Shown piece after piece: positions 7,917-47,745 of a stretch of DNA of 64,000 bases; position 1 is the first letter of the stretch, and the number at the start of each line of letters is the position of its first letter. A program made the translations under genes and the position numbers. The stretch lies in IMG/VR virus record IMGVR_UViG_3300037484_000435, positions 160,001-224,000 of that record; one strand, given 5' to 3'. The notes under the pieces are model-generated. The model had not been told where the DNA came from, did no database searches, and saw only the letters and a list, made by a program, of their open reading frames with translations. The stretch comes from a virus (Duplodnaviria; Caudoviricetes).

Positions 7917-8870
7917 TTAATACAATTCTAATTTCTTACACATTCTTCTCAGAGTTGAATAAGACCGTGCAGGAAAAAAATATTGCAATTTAGCAACGTC
8001 CTTATATTTATCATAAATATCCTTCAGACTATTTATCTCTTCTTCTGTCCACCGGATACGTGGTTTTAAGCTTATCTCCCTGCGTATGCCTGTTCTACTA
8101 GCCTTTAAAGTAATAGCAGACCACGAAAAATCAGGCAATAATTCCATCACCTCTTCTCTAGAAGCGTTGGGATAATGATTCTTTAAAATTGAAAAATCCT
8201 CCTCTGCCCACTCTCTCCTGAAAATCTGCTCCGCCCGCTCTCCTAAGAACTCCACAGCGATAGTATATTTTCTCTCTAAATAGATTGTAGCGTCCTTGTA
8301 AATCCATTGTAAGAATCGCACAGCATTCAAGGCAGAGTATTTTACACAGTAAACATTTCCTTCAGGGCATACTCTAGTTGTGTTTCTCTGAATCTTACTG
8401 AACTCACTATGTACAAAAGACACAATATCTAAAGTCCCAACAACCCCACATTGGAGTTTGTGCTTCTTATGAGAATAAATTGTACCATCACCATCAAAGT
8501 AGCCTCGGACATAATGACTTATTAAATTCTCGGGTAAGTTAATAGGTGGTTTTAGAGTAAAGGTCTTTCTAGGGGTAAGGTTATGCTCTAATAACTGATA
8601 ATACAAATTCTTATCACTAACTACAAGAGTTATCATATTACCCTTCTCTTTTCTATTCTGAAGATATAAGGCCCTAGTTGGACATAAAATATTTTTGATT
8701 TTCTCAAGAATCTCCGTGTCAGATTCTTTCAGACTCAATGTAACAACATAGCCAGCGGATTTACTATAATACATACACCCGTCTGCACAAAAGAACCCTA
8801 GAATGTAAGCTTTCTCCTCTGTATCAATAACAGAAAAGTCCAATGATTTGTGTTTACAAGGTCTGCCCAA
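7917..8870 (-). mobile_element. Free-standing two-motif LAGLIDADG endonuclease with C-terminal WxEE repeats
   Basis: IDTEEKAYILGFFCADG and YVRGYFDGDG motifs; WAEEDF and WTEEEI repeats; TTG start with AGGAGG RBS. Confidence 0.9.
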
Positions 8871-8873
8871 TAC

Positions 8874-8915
8874 TACCTCCTTTATACTGTCTACACATAA
8901 AAGAAAGTAAATTAA
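8874..8915 (-). promoter_or_regulatory. RBS-sequestering hairpin plus upstream TTAATTT motif
   Basis: Minus strand TAC(T)TTCTTTTAT-loop-ATAAAGGAGGTA pairs over the AGGAGG RBS (G:U pairs included), checked by hand. Confidence 0.65.
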
Positions 8916-8925
8916 TTTAGGTAGA

Positions 8926-9846
8926 CTAACGGCTACCGAAGATAACTAAATCGGGGCGAGCTTCTGAAATAGGTATTTTATTTACTTTACATTTCCCTTT
9001 CTCCCAAGAAGTCAAAGTAAGATGGCTATACAACCTTCCCCAAGTTAAATCTAAGTTTGGAGGAGTATCCTTTAGTTCCTCCCTTAACTTCGCACCTTGA
9101 TTTACGTAACCATACAGGTGCGAAGGAACTCCTTGCGGGCCCGAAGCCATACCGCCGTGCCAGAGATGGATAACAGGGCTATCCAACATAGGAATAAAAG
9201 AGTCGATCCCATATTTCTTCTTCCAAAAATCTAAGAAATGATTGTCTTCCGAGCCTATGAAGTTAGTGAAGCGCTCATCTATACCACCCAGCCTTATATA
9301 ACTTTCTTTCCTAAAAACTGACATATAATACACAAGTTCATATTTTGCGTTATCTTTTGTTATGTGGGTGGGGTAGTGAGACTTTAAATAGTTATCTTTT
9401 ATACTTTCCATATTACTAATAGGAAACTCGTAGCAATGATAGGGGAATGGCATAACAAATCTGTCCTGCTTCTCGTTTACCAAATCAATTGCTTTCTGCA
9501 AGAACAACGGGTCCAAAATAACCATCTCTGGGTCTGTTTTCCATAGAATATCGTGGCTACACAACTTAACCAAAATGTTGTAACGCTCGGCAGGACACCC
9601 GAACGGATTATTTACTACTGACTTGGAACGGTCCCAGTCCCATTTCTTGACGGACTGAAAAACATTACTGTAGTCACAAAGAACCTCGTCTAGGTTATCT
9701 GAACTACGGCTATCCATAACATTAAGTTCAACCCCGACTCCTGCCCTTGTCGTGTTATCACGTATAGCCTCTAAGCACCACTTCAATAGGTGTGCTCTAT
9801 TGTGAATTGATGTAAATACAGATATTGTTATTCCTTTATTATACAA
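8926..9846 (-). CDS. GT2 glycosyltransferase (paralog of 6212..7117)
   Basis: Start refined to TTG 9846 (AGGAG RBS). SIHNRAHLLKWCLEAI, DSRSSD, KTDPE, GGIDERF..GSED, HLWHG. Confidence 0.85.
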   Translation of the reverse strand: MYNKGITISVFTSIHNRAHLLKWCLEAIRDNTTRAGVGVELNVMDSRSSDNLDEVLCDYSNVFQSVKKWDWDRSKSVVNNPFGCPAERYNILVKLCSHDILWKTDPEMVILDPLFLQKAIDLVNEKQDRFVMPFPYHCYEFPISNMESIKDNYLKSHYPTHITKDNAKYELVYYMSVFRKESYIRLGGIDERFTNFIGSEDNHFLDFWKKKYGIDSFIPMLDSPVIHLWHGGMASGPQGVPSHLYGYVNQGAKLREELKDTPPNLDLTWGRLYSHLTLTSWEKGKCKVNKIPISEARPDLVIFGSR

Positions 9847-9908
9847 AATTCTTTTTCTCCTATAATTCGCAAACAACAATAAAGCAAGTTAGTGTCGTTT
9901 CTCCCTTC

Positions 9909-45853: not shown

Positions 45854-45859
45854 TTCTCC

Positions 45860-46294
45860 TTAATAATATTCCTTCGGCTCTTCGCTATCGGCAAGAGGCC
45901 AACTAGCACCACGACTTCCAGCAACTATTCTTAACTGCTGTGTCGCAATCATACGTGCCCTTCGCCCAGGCATTATCATTCTCCTAGTGTGTGGTCGCGG
46001 TTCATGGTATGCGTGTGTATTAGCTTCCGCTAAGTCAAGACCTTCAATCTCTTCCAAGGGTTTACCATCAATGATATCTCGCGTTATCCGTTTGGCTTCT
46101 TCATACTCTTCCTGTGTGTAAGCATCGGGAAACGTGATTTCTCTTATGATTTCATCTTCTGTGATTATAGGTGGCTTTTCACACCCACACTGACTACACG
46201 TAGCGTTCTGTAAATTGATTCCTCGCCATGCAAACCAACCACAGTCAGGACACTCGTGTTTTAGTATTTTACTTTTTATTAGTTTCTTAGCCAT
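45860..46294 (-). CDS. Zinc-ribbon protein, tandem paralog A
   Basis: HECPDCGW..W...CSQC...PP.ITEDE.IRE...AKRI...IIDGKPLEEI.GL. Confidence 0.65.
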   Translation of the reverse strand: MAKKLIKSKILKHECPDCGWFAWRGINLQNATCSQCGCEKPPIITEDEIIREITFPDAYTQEEYEEAKRITRDIIDGKPLEEIEGLDLAEANTHAYHEPRPHTRRMIMPGRRARMIATQQLRIVAGSRGASWPLADSEEPKEYY

Positions 46295-46304
46295 AAGGGT
46301 CTCC

Positions 46305-46745
46305 TTAATAGTAATTGTTCTTTCCCGTATGACCTACCACCTGAGAACCAACGAGTAAACCCAGAAGACTCCAACCATATAGTCCAGTTGCACACCCTCT
46401 GATATCGTTGTAAGGCACCCTAGATATATCAGCCAATGCCCATGTGTCTCCTTCCTCAAGAGACGCGAGCATATCGGAAGCGACATTCAATCCGTCTATT
46501 TCTTCCAAAGGTTTACCGTCAATAATCTCTTGAGCGATCCGTTTGGCTCTATCGTAATCCTCTGGGGAATACGTATCGTTGATTATCATTTCCCTTATTA
46601 ACTCGTCCTCAGTTATTTTAGGTGGGTTTGTAGACTCACACTGAGAACACCTTGGACTATCCACAATAGGATAATCCCGCCAAATCTTCCAACCACAATC
46701 AACACACTCATGTTGATAAATTTTAAACTTTAATTGTTTCTTCAT
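46305..46745 (-). CDS. Zinc-ribbon protein, tandem paralog B
   Basis: HECVDCGW..W...CSQC...PP.ITEDE.IRE...AKRI...IIDGKPLEEI.GL; start refined. Confidence 0.65.
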   Translation of the reverse strand: MKKQLKFKIYQHECVDCGWKIWRDYPIVDSPRCSQCESTNPPKITEDELIREMIINDTYSPEDYDRAKRIAQEIIDGKPLEEIDGLNVASDMLASLEEGDTWALADISRVPYNDIRGCATGLYGWSLLGLLVGSQVVGHTGKNNYY

Positions 46746-46758
46746 CTTTTTTTCCTTT

Positions 46759-47745
46759 TTACTTCTCGTCTTTAGTATATTGGTTCTTAAAGCAACCTCT
46801 ACGAAATAGGCCATGTTTTTCCTTTCCCCTCTTATAAATCGAATTCCATGAGCGGTTAGGTAATAGATTTAGAAGGTTTTCTTTTGAACGTCTTTCAAAA
46901 TTTTTAACAAGAAGGTCATCTTCTTCCGTGGTCCAATTTACGTAGTCAGTCCTCTCTACCACCGTTCTTCGTAACCCCAAGCAGGAAGCTTTCGACATAA
47001 GGGCGCGCCAATTTCTGTGAAATCTGGTAATTAATTCCTCTCTAGAAAGAATAGGGTACATTACCATAAAATCTTCAGTCTCAACTGTTGTCCATTCAGC
47101 CACCCTATGTCTGTTGTTCTCTATATAATTTAAGAACTTATTGTATTTACGTTCTAAATAAATAGTGGCATCTTGGTAAATATAATCAAAAAACCTTATT
47201 GCTGAAGCACCACTATACTTAATAATATAATATGTTTTTTCTGACTGAATGTTGTTACGTTTAACCCCTATATCATTAAAACTTTTTTGAATGAATAACA
47301 AAAGATCACGCGACCCACTCGTTACGCCACACCTAAGCCTGCTAGAGTTAAGAGTTAGATAAACAGTGCCATCCCCATCAAAATAACCTCTAATCCAGTG
47401 ATGGACCAAATGACTTGGTAAACCCCTTGGGGGGAGAATAGTAAAAGTCTTTCGCGGATGTAATCCATGAATAAATAATTGATTATATAAAGACTTATCG
47501 TAGACAACCAATTTCACCGTGCTTTGGCTATTCGGACGAGAGATTCTCTTATACTCATAAAGTTTTCTCCCTGGAGATATTAAATCTCTGATAATCTCAA
47601 GGTGACCTCTGTCACTTAAAGCAACCTCTATTGTTAAAAATGATCCCTTTTTTGTCGCCTGCACACAACCATCCGCAGCGATAAACCCTAAGATATACGC
47701 CTTCTCCTCAGTGTCAATAGTAGAAAAATCTAATAAATTAGTCAT
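46759..47745 (-). mobile_element. Free-standing LAGLIDADG endonuclease with two C-terminal WTxxE modules
   Basis: DFSTIDTEEKAYILGFIAADG; WIRGYFDGDG; WTTVE and WTTEED. Confidence 0.9.

What the first reader, a model, noticed from the sequence alone, without database searches (positions are those of the whole stretch)
7917..47745. Nine free-standing LAGLIDADG endonucleases interleaved with glycan genes
Seen: 9 paralogs with a shared IDTEEKAY-LG...ADG / RG.FDGDG core, all keeping the acidic residue at position 8 of both motifs. None has recognisable intein splicing ends or splits a host gene. All lie inside the glycan region, and none lies in the replication or virion modules of this window. Established: phage free-standing homing endonucleases are usually GIY-YIG or HNH and promote inheritance of neighbouring alleles by co-conversion; WhiA shows LAGLIDADG+HTH proteins can also be domesticated as regulators. 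Inference: either they drive allele exchange of glycan genes during co-infection (a glycan diversification engine), or they are a domesticated regulator family.
Basis: partly seen in the sequence, partly recalled or inferred. Interest (0 to 1): 0.75.

Follow-up and report, generated by a model that had tools for sequence, protein, structure and literature searches.

The report
Mobile LAGLIDADG nuclease genes crowding megaphage
Nine intact, free-standing LAGLIDADG homing-endonuclease genes do sit between the sugar-pathway genes of a 545-kb uncultured phage, but they belong to a 31-copy family of selfish mobile genes spread over the whole genome, so this is a dense example of a known kind of element and not a glycan-specific system.

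Summary
Nine paralogous double-motif LAGLIDADG genes (phrog_4645) lie on the minus strand at the stated coordinates. All keep both catalytic Asp residues, and all sit between intact genes of a ~45-kb sugar-nucleotide, glycosyltransferase, methyl- and sulfotransferase cluster. No intron or intein is involved.

The window is part of a 545,322-bp sediment megaphage that carries 31 such genes. The other 22 lie next to DNA polymerase A and ribonucleotide reductase, ThyX, the portal gene, tail-tip genes, the tape-measure gene and others. A second region (genome 333-389 kb) is as dense as the glycan region (circular-shift P = 0.054).

Syntenic glycan clusters of related phages have these gaps empty, filled at other gaps, or filled with an ortholog at the same gap (LAG6). 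One soil metagenome holds a 624-nt LAG6 piece at 99% identity while flanking genes are 85-93% identical.

The LAG genes have lower GC than other genes (36.5% vs 42.2%).

Verdict: selfish, mobile free-standing homing endonucleases with shuffled Myb/HTH DNA-binding modules. Co-conversion of neighbouring glycan alleles is plausible but unproven. The regulator reading is not supported. Earlier reports of this scan reached the same conclusion for the tail-tip cluster of this genome.

The parts
7917..8870 (-). LAG1, 317 aa. LAGLIDADG core at the N-terminus and a ~99-aa C-terminal helical (Myb/HTH-like) module. It has its own 55-nt leader with GGAGG.
9909..10958 (-). LAG2, 349 aa. N-terminal core and a C-terminal double HTH (CENP-B_N / psq-type). 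It has a 102-nt leader.
16476..17543 (-). LAG3, 355 aa. It overlaps both neighbours (the 292-aa terminase-like ATPase gene and the nucleotidyltransferase gene). This gap is empty in relatives A, B and C.
21936..22811 (-). LAG4, 291 aa, with an N-terminal accessory module. It lies between the 322-aa gene and the TylF methyltransferase gene, with stop and start codons overlapping. This gap is empty in A, B, C, D and E.
28247..29233 (-). LAG5, 328 aa, with a ~112-aa N-terminal HTH module. It lies downstream of epimerase 2. This gap is empty in A, B, D, E and G.
31398..32390 (-). LAG6, 330 aa, with accessory modules at both ends. It lies downstream of epimerase 1. Orthologs of 59-60% identity sit at the same gap in relatives A and G; the gap is empty in B, D and E. 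A soil metagenome holds a 624-nt piece at 99% identity.
34596..35432 (-). LAG7, 278 aa. It lies between an HNH gene and the APS kinase gene, overlapping the stop codon of the HNH gene upstream. This gap is empty in A and B.
42968..43906 (-). LAG8, 312 aa, with a ~105-aa N-terminal module. It lies downstream of the ADP-ribosylglycohydrolase gene. This gap is empty in A. A 67% ortholog sits in relative F beside an MT23 methyltransferase gene, at another gap.
46759..47745 (-). LAG9, 328 aa, with the core at 13-210 and two C-terminal three-helix bundles. It lies downstream of the GT47-like gene. This gap is empty in A and B.
13806..14780 (-). HNH endonuclease gene (phrog_2255) inserted between the GHMP kinase and SIS isomerase genes. 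It is absent at this gap in A, B and C and is a second class of free-standing nuclease gene in the cluster. Paralogs lie at 2326-3078 and 3725-4669.
35429..35950 (-). HNH endonuclease gene directly upstream of LAG7. It is conserved at this place in A and B.
5648..51368 (-). Glycan-gene cluster that hosts the nine LAG genes. The genome's only Pfam hits to GT2, Epimerase and Methyltransf_24 lie at genome 155-212 kb.
7114..12337 (-). Derived block: DUF5662, epimerase 3, LAG2, GT2 (293-aa type), LAG1 and a 264-aa gene. In relatives A, B and C its non-LAG genes (other than DUF5662) sit at three other places of the cluster, and the two flanks of the block are adjacent.

Best explanation
The nine genes are free-standing, double-motif (monomeric) LAGLIDADG homing endonuclease genes. 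They belong to a 31-member family in a 545-kb megaphage. Each protein joins a ~200-aa pseudo-dimeric nuclease core, with both catalytic Asp residues, to one to three Myb/HTH-like helical DNA-binding modules placed at the N-terminus, the C-terminus or both.

The inferred mechanism follows free-standing T4-type HEGs. During co-infection the enzyme cuts the cognate 'empty' site near its own insertion point in a related genome. Recombinational repair then copies the nuclease gene, and some flanking sequence, into that genome.

What is shown here: family membership, fold, intact active-site residues, clean intergenic insertion, sporadic and site-specific occupancy among related phages, deviant base composition, and a genome-wide distribution that is not tied to glycan genes. 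What is inferred: cleavage activity, target sites and co-conversion.

The high density in the glycan cluster most likely reflects a region of many short, exchangeable accessory genes that tolerates insertions, together with local spread of subfamilies. It does not indicate a function in glycan biology.
For: Family and fold:
- Pfam LAGLIDADG_3 and phrog_4645 match all nine genes.
- The profile search against PDB sequences gives I-Tsp061I, I-HjeMI, I-AniI and I-DmoI as best matches.
- The AF2 model of LAG9 has pLDDT 88.8. Its top Foldseek hits are I-Tsp061I, the bI3 maturase, I-AniI, I-SmaMI and I-OnuI.

Active site:
- Both motif Asp residues are kept in 30 of 31 paralogs. The remaining copy is a half copy.
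- No other decayed fragments are detectable in six frames.

Free-standing status:
- Flanking genes are full length and colinear with orthologs that lack the insert.
- No Rfam intron is found.

Mobility:
- Relative B (80% identical GT819) has none of LAG3-LAG7, and neither LAG8 nor LAG9 at their gaps, but has LAGs at other gaps.
- Relative C (83%) has one LAG, at a gap that is empty in this phage.
- Relative A has three LAGs, and only one is at a shared gap.
- Relatives D and E have none in 22 kb and 15.5 kb of synteny. The whole 260-kb record of D gives only 3 weak matches.
- LAG6 orthologs (59-60%) sit at the same gap in A and G.
- A LAG8 ortholog (67%) occurs in F, whose GT819 is only 52% identical.
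- In a soil metagenome, a 624-nt LAG6 piece is 99% identical, while other pieces of more than 300 nt are 85-93% identical.

Composition and spread:
- LAG genes have GC 36.5% against 42.2% for other genes (P = 6.5e-16).
- The genome holds 31 copies. Some lie next to DNA pol A/RNR, ThyX, ClpB, the portal gene, tail-tip genes and the tape-measure gene.
- Each paralog's nearest relative tends to lie close by: median 18 kb against 112 kb after shuffling.
- The family is very common: at least 545 IMG/VR loci and at least 4,617 proteins at E <= 1e-20. Other jumbo phages carry 14, 7 and 4 copies.
Against: - No cleavage, target site or homing event has been observed.
- All paralogs are old (55% identity at most), so there is no sign of a recent burst within this genome.
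- DNA identity to relative A is 64-88% throughout, with no near-identical tract next to a LAG. Recent exchange with that lineage is therefore not shown.
- Thirty of 31 copies are intact, which is more than the classical invade-decay-loss cycle predicts. This leaves room for some benefit to the phage.
- The 99% LAG6 piece rests on one low-depth contig.
- The glycan region is about three times denser than the genome mean (9 observed against 3.1 expected, Poisson P = 0.005), and this density is not fully explained.
Confidence: 0.8

Rival explanations
1. Adaptive 'glycan diversification or competition' system. The phage retains the LAG array because cutting the cognate sites of co-infecting relatives excludes their glycan alleles (marker exclusion, interference competition). 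The same cutting shuffles glycan cassettes, and so speeds up variation of a phage-made glycan.
For: - The density in the cluster is about 3-fold above the genome mean.
- 30 of 31 copies are intact.
- A derived block at 7114-12337 collects three genes that sit at three separate places in A, B and C, and interleaves them with LAG1 and LAG2. In relatives, two of those genes lie directly upstream of a LAG gene and the third one small ORF away.
- Epimerase 1, next to LAG6, shows allele discordance. This phage resembles D and E (58-60%), A resembles G (69%), and the two groups are 43-50% identical. LAG6 itself is 59-60% identical in all pairs.
- A benefit of a phage homing endonuclease in co-infection has been shown for PhiPA3 gp210 (PMC11620839). 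Nuclease genes at the boundaries of exchange are described in PMC10448857.
Against: - 22 of 31 copies lie outside the glycan cluster, next to classical HEG neighbours.
- The region at 333-389 kb is as dense as the glycan region.
- No >90% nucleotide tracts flank the LAGs when compared with relative A.
- Allele discordance also occurs at the sulfotransferase gene, which is not adjacent to a LAG.
- The rearrangement and the discordance are single cases without a control rate.
Confidence: 0.13
2. Domesticated DNA-binding regulators (WhiA-like). The LAGLIDADG fold plus HTH modules bind operators and control expression of neighbouring genes without cutting DNA.
For: - The proteins combine a LAGLIDADG fold with HTH/Myb modules.
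- The C-terminal parts weakly match phrog_323 'transcriptional regulator, D5-like'.
- LAG6 has been kept intact at one gap in three diverged lineages, with dN similar to its neighbours.
Against: - Both catalytic Asp residues are kept in all full-length copies, whereas WhiA has lost them (established knowledge).
- No WhiA Pfam domains are found.
- Occupancy differs between phages whose neighbouring genes are 80-83% identical.
- GC content is deviant.
- Members of the same PHROG family are annotated as intron-encoded endonucleases in Staphylococcus phages.
Confidence: 0.04
3. Intron- or intein-encoded endonucleases whose host genes were mis-called as separate ORFs.
For: Relatives of the family in Staphylococcus phages Romulus and Remus and in a crAss-like phage are annotated as intron-encoded.
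Against: - Flanking ORFs are different, complete genes with orthologs of equal length in relatives that lack the insert.
- Gaps to neighbouring genes range from -19 to 102 nt upstream. That leaves no room for a ribozyme there, and three genes overlap their neighbours.
- No Rfam intron is found at gathering score.
- Each ORF starts with its own start codon, and those with a leader have a Shine-Dalgarno sequence.
Confidence: 0.01

Closest known systems
phrog_4645 endonucleases, e.g. the LAGLIDADG genes of Staphylococcus phages Romulus/Remus (Silviavirus), Kayvirus phages, crAss-like phage cr116_1 and Prevotella phage Lak-A1
   Same: Same protein family: about 35% identity over the ~200-aa core, and phrog_4645 E-values of 1e-34 to 1e-53.
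   Different: The Staphylococcus and crAss-like phage copies are annotated as intron-encoded (in a recA-like gene), with one or two per genome. Here there are 31 per genome. All nine in the window are free-standing and carry shuffled Myb/HTH modules.
Free-standing homing endonucleases of T4-like phages (Seg, GIY-YIG; Mob, HNH)
   Same: They sit between genes, combine a nuclease domain with a terminal DNA-binding module, and are present or absent sporadically among relatives. Marker exclusion and co-conversion are established for them (established knowledge; summarised in PMC10448857).
   Different: The catalytic fold here is LAGLIDADG, which is uncommon among stand-alone phage HEGs. For comparison, 139 Jug phage genomes hold 17 LAGLIDADG domains, 8 of them stand-alone, against 505 HNH (PMC12880540).
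HEG-islands (Barth, Dunham and Seed 2023, PMC10448857)
   Same: Several nuclease genes bracket gene modules, HEG content at cognate gaps turns over among relatives, and domains are shuffled among HEGs.
   Different: The cargo here is an accessory glycan cluster, not an essential module. The defining >90% nucleotide conservation between otherwise diverged phages was not seen against relative A (64-88%). It appears only in a 624-nt LAG6 piece in one metagenome.
Solved monomeric LAGLIDADG enzymes I-Tsp061I (2dch), I-AniI, I-DmoI and I-OnuI/I-SmaMI
   Same: They share the two-lobed alpha-beta-beta-alpha-beta-beta-alpha fold and the pair of catalytic acidic residues.
   Different: Those enzymes are encoded in introns of archaea or organelles and have no extra HTH/Myb modules. 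Sequence identity is only 12-23%.
WhiA (sporulation and cell-division regulator of Gram-positive bacteria)
   Same: A LAGLIDADG-type fold joined to a helix-turn-helix domain.
   Different: WhiA lacks the catalytic acidic residues and is a conserved single-copy gene (established knowledge). Here the Asp pair is kept, no WhiA Pfam domain is found, and the copies vary between close relatives.

Membership tests
LAGLIDADG homing endonuclease (double-motif, monomeric) | Two LAGLIDADG motifs per chain, each ending in a conserved acidic residue | tested here: met
   Alignment of the 31 paralogs plus 3 relatives shows ...ADG and ...DGDG (or close variants) in 30 of 31 paralogs and in all nine in the window.
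LAGLIDADG homing endonuclease (double-motif, monomeric) | Pseudo-symmetric alpha-beta-beta-alpha-beta-beta-alpha x2 fold | tested here: met
   The AF2 model of LAG9 (pLDDT 88.8) shows this element order in residues 13-210. Foldseek's top hits are I-Tsp061I, bI3 maturase, I-AniI and I-SmaMI at E 2e-10 to 1e-7.
LAGLIDADG homing endonuclease (double-motif, monomeric) | Profile match to curated family models | tested here: met
   Eight of nine score over the Pfam PF14528 cut-off; LAG6 scores 21.8 bits against a cut-off of 22.5. All nine match phrog_4645.
LAGLIDADG homing endonuclease (double-motif, monomeric) | Site-specific cleavage of a long DNA target | not testable with these tools
   This needs purified protein and empty-site substrates.
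LAGLIDADG homing endonuclease (double-motif, monomeric) | Genetic signature of homing: sporadic presence at a fixed site among related genomes | tested here: met
   LAG6 orthologs sit at the same gap in A and G and are absent in B, D and E. The other gaps are variably occupied.
Intron-encoded or intein-encoded HEG | Interrupts a host gene whose halves flank it; a ribozyme or Hint domain is present | tested here: not met
   Flanking genes are complete and differ from each other. No Rfam intron is found. No Hint or intein Pfam domain is found.
WhiA-like domesticated LAGLIDADG regulator | Loss of catalytic acidic residues; conserved single-copy position; WhiA_N / HTH_WhiA domains | tested here: not met
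   The Asp pair is kept. There is no WhiA Pfam hit. Occupancy varies among close relatives.
HEG-island (Barth et al. 2023) | Cargo bracketed by HEGs and conserved at >90% nucleotide identity between otherwise dissimilar phages | tested here: inconclusive
   Bracketing is present. Identity to relative A is only 64-88%. A 99% identical 624-nt LAG6 piece occurs in one soil metagenome whose other pieces of more than 300 nt are 85-93% identical. Too few relatives have DNA available.

The most novel reading that the evidence does not exclude
The LAG array is not purely parasitic. It acts as a set of allele-specific weapons and recombination starters that the megaphage lineage keeps intact (30 of 31 copies). 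In the glycan cluster it moves whole gene cassettes as well as itself. The LAG-interleaved block at 7114-12337, assembled from three ancestral positions, and the allele switch at the epimerase 1 | LAG6 boundary would then be traces of nuclease-driven cassette shuffling of a phage-encoded sulfated and methylated glycan pathway.
Probability: 0.15. Interest if true: 0.6.

Novelty: new member of a known kind. Interest (0 to 1): 0.35.

Why it matters
The finding shows that stand-alone LAGLIDADG genes, usually regarded as intron or intein passengers of organelles and archaea, can form large families in huge phages: 31 copies here and 14 in another 256-kb phage. Within such a family the DNA-binding modules are freely shuffled and occupancy turns over quickly between close relatives.

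The family is also a natural library of about 30 diverged monomeric meganucleases whose likely targets can be read from the empty sites of relatives. That is useful both for studying specificity and for testing whether homing endonucleases shape the mosaic accessory gene clusters of megaphages.

It does not reveal a new kind of system, and it does not link the nucleases functionally to glycan synthesis.

Tried and rejected
- Megablast of 14 kb of the window against cultured phages found no match.
- The search for related loci with single proteins (GT819 and the 658-aa protein) found no relatives in IMG/VR. With an alignment, only two distant relatives with DNA came back.
The record behind L081 is not held, so relative A's whole-genome LAG count could not be made.
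- The DNA of relatives B, C and F could not be fetched because the sample file is too large. Only their gene tables were used.
- A global DNA alignment to define exact insertion borders failed at ~70% identity. Borders are given from ORF ends instead.
- dN/dS could not be computed because dS is saturated for all genes compared with A.
- Reads: both runs are contigs only. Stretches without cover in X2 (including LAG4, LAG5 and LAG7) say nothing.
- The X1 joint 21675->22808 would remove LAG4 together with part of the TylF gene, but its side is only 30 letters. The joints 28861->35379 and 31875->35354 connect paralogous LAG motifs. I count none of these as evidence of LAG-less variants.
- The leader motif TAAYTDACT upstream of four of the LAG genes with their own leader (looser variants precede two more) is not LAG-specific. 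It occurs 38 times in the genome, 14 of them upstream of a gene start and 10 of those at non-LAG genes.
- The idea that 17525-18403 is a terminase fragment split by LAG3 is rejected. The 285-300-aa gene is conserved and complete in relatives A and C, which have no LAG there.

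
Full report
WHAT IS THERE

The window is bases 160,001-224,000 of a single 545,322-bp IMG/VR virus record (CheckV 100% complete). The record has 40 tRNA genes, including a CTA-anticodon suppressor. Earlier reports of this scan call it a sediment megaphage, and the best public holder of the stretch is a sediment metagenome.

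All long ORFs in the window are on the minus strand. They share 26-40% identity, with E-values down to 2e-68. All nine hit Pfam LAGLIDADG_3 (eight over the curated cut-off; LAG6 scores 21.8 bits against 22.5) and PHROG 4645 'endonuclease'.

An alignment of all genomic paralogs shows both motif-terminal Asp residues in every one of the nine. An AlphaFold2 model of LAG9 (pLDDT 88.8) has the two-lobed LAGLIDADG core in residues 13-210, followed by two three-helix bundles. Its best structural matches are I-Tsp061I, the bI3 maturase, I-AniI, I-SmaMI and I-OnuI. The sequence-profile search against the PDB gives the same set, and WhiA does not appear among its 17 matches.

The accessory Myb/HTH-like module is C-terminal in LAG1, 2, 3, 7 and 9. 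It is N-terminal in LAG4, 5 and 8, and on both sides in LAG6.

FREE-STANDING, NOT INTRON OR INTEIN

Six LAG genes have their own short leader (31-102 nt), most with a GGAGG-type ribosome-binding site. Three overlap the stop codon of the upstream gene. Rfam finds no intron in the window at gathering score.

The neighbours on either side of each LAG are different genes. They are complete and colinear, end to end, with their orthologs in a related phage that has no LAG at that place. This holds for the GT47-like gene, ADP-ribosylglycohydrolase, HNH, APS kinase, epimerase 2, the 322-aa gene, TylF, the 292-aa gene and the nucleotidyltransferase.

THE NEIGHBOURHOOD

The genes between the LAGs include GT2, GT4 and GT47-like glycosyltransferases and three NAD-dependent epimerases/dehydratases. 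There are also a SIS isomerase, a GHMP kinase and a nucleotidyltransferase, which together resemble a heptose-type activation set. The cluster further holds a cytidylyltransferase, several TylF/Methyltransf_24 methyltransferases, a sulfotransferase and an APS kinase.

The cluster is bracketed by a UvrD helicase at the low end. At the high end lie RuvC, DnaJ, primase, DnaB, UvsX and a clamp-like gene. The genome's only Pfam hits to GT2, Epimerase and Methyltransf_24 lie at genome 155-212 kb. 'Glycan region' is therefore a fair description.

The cluster also holds HNH endonuclease genes at 13806-14780 and 35429-35950, and two more lie just beyond it.

THE WHOLE GENOME CHANGES THE PICTURE

An HMM built from the nine finds 31 paralogs in the genome, and Pfam PF14528 finds the same places. 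The 22 copies outside the window include the following (genome coordinates):
- One between the DNA polymerase A and class II ribonucleotide reductase genes (152,818).
- Copies next to ThyX, an HD-domain gene and a ClpB-like ATPase.
- Four alternating with tail-tip genes at 279.8-284.8 kb.
- Two just upstream of the 14,711-codon tape-measure gene.
- One directly downstream of the portal gene.
- Others next to ParB, a caspase-like protease and a zeta-toxin-like kinase.

The glycan region holds 9 copies where a uniform spread predicts 3.1 (Poisson P = 0.005). The copies are clustered everywhere, however. With circular shifts, P is 0.054, and the 55-kb stretch from 333.6 to 389 kb also holds nine.

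Paralogs are regional. Each copy's best-matching paralog lies a median of 18 kb away, against 112 kb after label shuffling (P < 1e-4). No pair exceeds 55% identity. The family thus grew by old, mostly local spread.

RELATED PHAGES

Homologs of two cluster genes led to syntenic clusters in other metagenomic phage contigs.
- Relative B (147-kb contig; GT819 80% identical) has the same gene order. It has no LAG at the LAG3, 4, 5, 6 or 7 gaps, and none after the GT47-like gene where LAG9 sits. It lacks the ADP-ribosylglycohydrolase gene that precedes LAG8. It carries LAGs before the GT47-like gene and around the RF-1 gene.
- Relative C (83%) has a single LAG, in front of RNase HII. That gap is empty in this phage.
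- Relative A (381-kb contig; the same protein also lies on a 647-kb contig; 61%) has three LAGs in 43 kb. Only one shares a gap with this phage, the one after epimerase 1, and it is 59% identical to LAG6.
- A further contig, G, has a 60% LAG6 ortholog at the same gap.
- Relatives D and E have no LAG in 22 kb and 15.5 kb of synteny. The whole 260-kb record of D (96% complete) gives only three weak matches.
- A 67% ortholog of LAG8 lies in relative F, whose GT819 is only 52% identical. It sits beside an MT23 methyltransferase gene but at another gap.

Contigs of a soil metagenome laid on the window are 85-93% identical in their longer pieces over host genes. They are 99% identical (6 differences in 624 nt) inside LAG6. 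This rests on one low-depth contig, so it is a hint of recent transfer and not proof.

LAG genes are also compositionally distinct: GC 36.5% against 42.2%, and GC3 32% against 40% (P = 6.5e-16).

Together these are the classical marks of mobile homing endonuclease genes.

HOW COMMON IS THE FAMILY

At least 545 IMG/VR loci and at least 4,617 database proteins (E <= 1e-20) belong to the family. Cultured members include Staphylococcus Kayvirus and Silviavirus phages, where the gene is annotated as intron-encoded within a recA-like gene. They also include a crAss-like phage and Lak-A1.

Other large IMG/VR phages carry 14, 7 and 4 copies. The 14-copy phage has the same density per kilobase as this one.

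Published surveys describe stand-alone LAGLIDADG genes in phages as a minority class. Jug phages have 17 LAGLIDADG domains, 8 of them stand-alone, against 505 HNH in 139 genomes (PMC12880540). In the survey of PMC10448857, at least 8 of 20 LAGLIDADGs were intein-encoded. The papers I could search did not describe a LAGLIDADG-dominated load of this size.

DOES THE ARRAY SHAPE THE GLYCAN CLUSTER?

Two observations keep this idea alive.

First, the block at 7114-12337 (DUF5662, epimerase 3, LAG2, a 293-aa-type GT2, LAG1 and a 264-aa gene) is inserted between two genes that are adjacent in A, B and C. Its non-LAG genes other than DUF5662 sit at three other places in those relatives. In one relative or another, two of them lie directly upstream of a LAG gene and the third one small ORF away.

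Second, epimerase 1 comes in two allele types. This phage, D and E share 56-60% identity, A and G share 69%, and the two types are 43-50% identical. LAG6 next to it is 59-60% identical in all three carriers, which places an exchange boundary at the nuclease gene.

Several points count against a special role:
- The sulfotransferase gene shows similar discordance without an adjacent LAG.
- DNA identity to A is 64-88% throughout, with no near-identical tract.
- These are single cases without a background rate.

I therefore treat co-conversion as an expected by-product of homing, as established for T4 Seg and Mob genes. A benefit in phage-phage competition, shown for PhiPA3 gp210 (PMC11620839), remains possible. 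Neither is shown here.

VERDICT

The elements are free-standing, probably active, mobile LAGLIDADG homing endonuclease genes of a known phage family (phrog_4645). They are unusually numerous in this megaphage and are not specific to glycan genes.

This agrees with two earlier follow-up reports of this scan on the tail-tip cluster of the same genome. I checked those positions only by my own HMM search.

Noticed in passing
window 5648-51368: A ~45-kb phage-encoded glycan cluster. It has a heptose-type activation set (SIS isomerase, GHMP kinase, nucleotidyltransferase), three epimerases/dehydratases, GT2/GT4/GT47-like transferases and at least six TylF/MT24/MT23 methyltransferases. It also has a sulfotransferase with its own APS kinase, which suggests a methylated and sulfated glycan made by a megaphage. 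The cluster is conserved, with variations, in at least seven related contigs.
   Followed up: partly
window 7114-12337: A derived block (DUF5662, epimerase 3, LAG2, 293-aa-type GT2, LAG1, 264-aa gene) is inserted between two genes that are adjacent in relatives A, B and C. Its non-LAG genes other than DUF5662 lie at three different places in those relatives.
   Followed up: partly
window 13806-14780 (paralogs 2326-3078 and 3725-4669): HNH endonuclease genes of phrog_2255 that are invisible to Pfam. The one at 13806-14780 sits between the GHMP kinase and SIS genes, which are adjacent in relatives A, B and C. It is a second class of mobile nuclease gene in the cluster.
   Followed up: partly
window 32448-33464 and 31398-32390: Epimerase 1 has two allele types among relatives (this phage, D and E against A and G; 43-50% identity between types). 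The adjacent LAG6 is 59-60% identical in all carriers. This suggests a recombination boundary at the nuclease gene.
   Followed up: partly
window 31674-32297: A soil metagenome from 2012 (run X2) holds a contig 99% identical to this part of LAG6. Its other pieces of more than 300 nt over host genes are 85-93% identical.
   Followed up: partly
window 8871-8925, 10959-11060, 29234-29264, 32391-32447, 43907-43968, 47746-47795: The six LAG genes with their own leader carry a TAAYTDACT-like motif about 25-45 nt upstream of the start codon (an exact match at four of them). The exact motif occurs 38 times in the genome, 14 times upstream of a gene start and 10 of those at non-LAG genes. It looks like a general phage promoter-like element and not a LAG-specific switch.
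   Followed up: partly
genome 47126-47202 (outside the window): A tRNA with anticodon CTA, a TAG suppressor that ARAGORN labels 'Pyl', lies among 40 tRNA genes. The genes in this window read through cleanly with the standard code.
   Followed up: no
window 17525-18403, 40519-40908, 43969-44769, 19075-19707: Genes unrelated to glycans are embedded in the cluster and, the RF-1 gene aside, have homologs in relative A (the RF-1 gene has one in relative B): a 292-aa terminase-large-subunit-like ATPase, an RF-1/ArfB-like peptidyl-tRNA hydrolase domain protein, an ADP-ribosylglycohydrolase and RNase HII.
   Followed up: no
IMG/VR record behind L002 (IMGVR_UViG_3300005077_000001, 256,335 bp): Another jumbo phage carries 14 matches to the same LAGLIDADG profile, which is the same density per kilobase as here. 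A 179-kb phage (behind L079) has 7 matches, most with in-frame TGA, so it may use another genetic code or hold decayed copies.
   Followed up: no
genome 388985-389515 (L086:12985-13515): This is the only decayed member of the family: a 176-aa half copy that lacks the first LAGLIDADG motif, next to a caspase-like protease gene.
   Followed up: no
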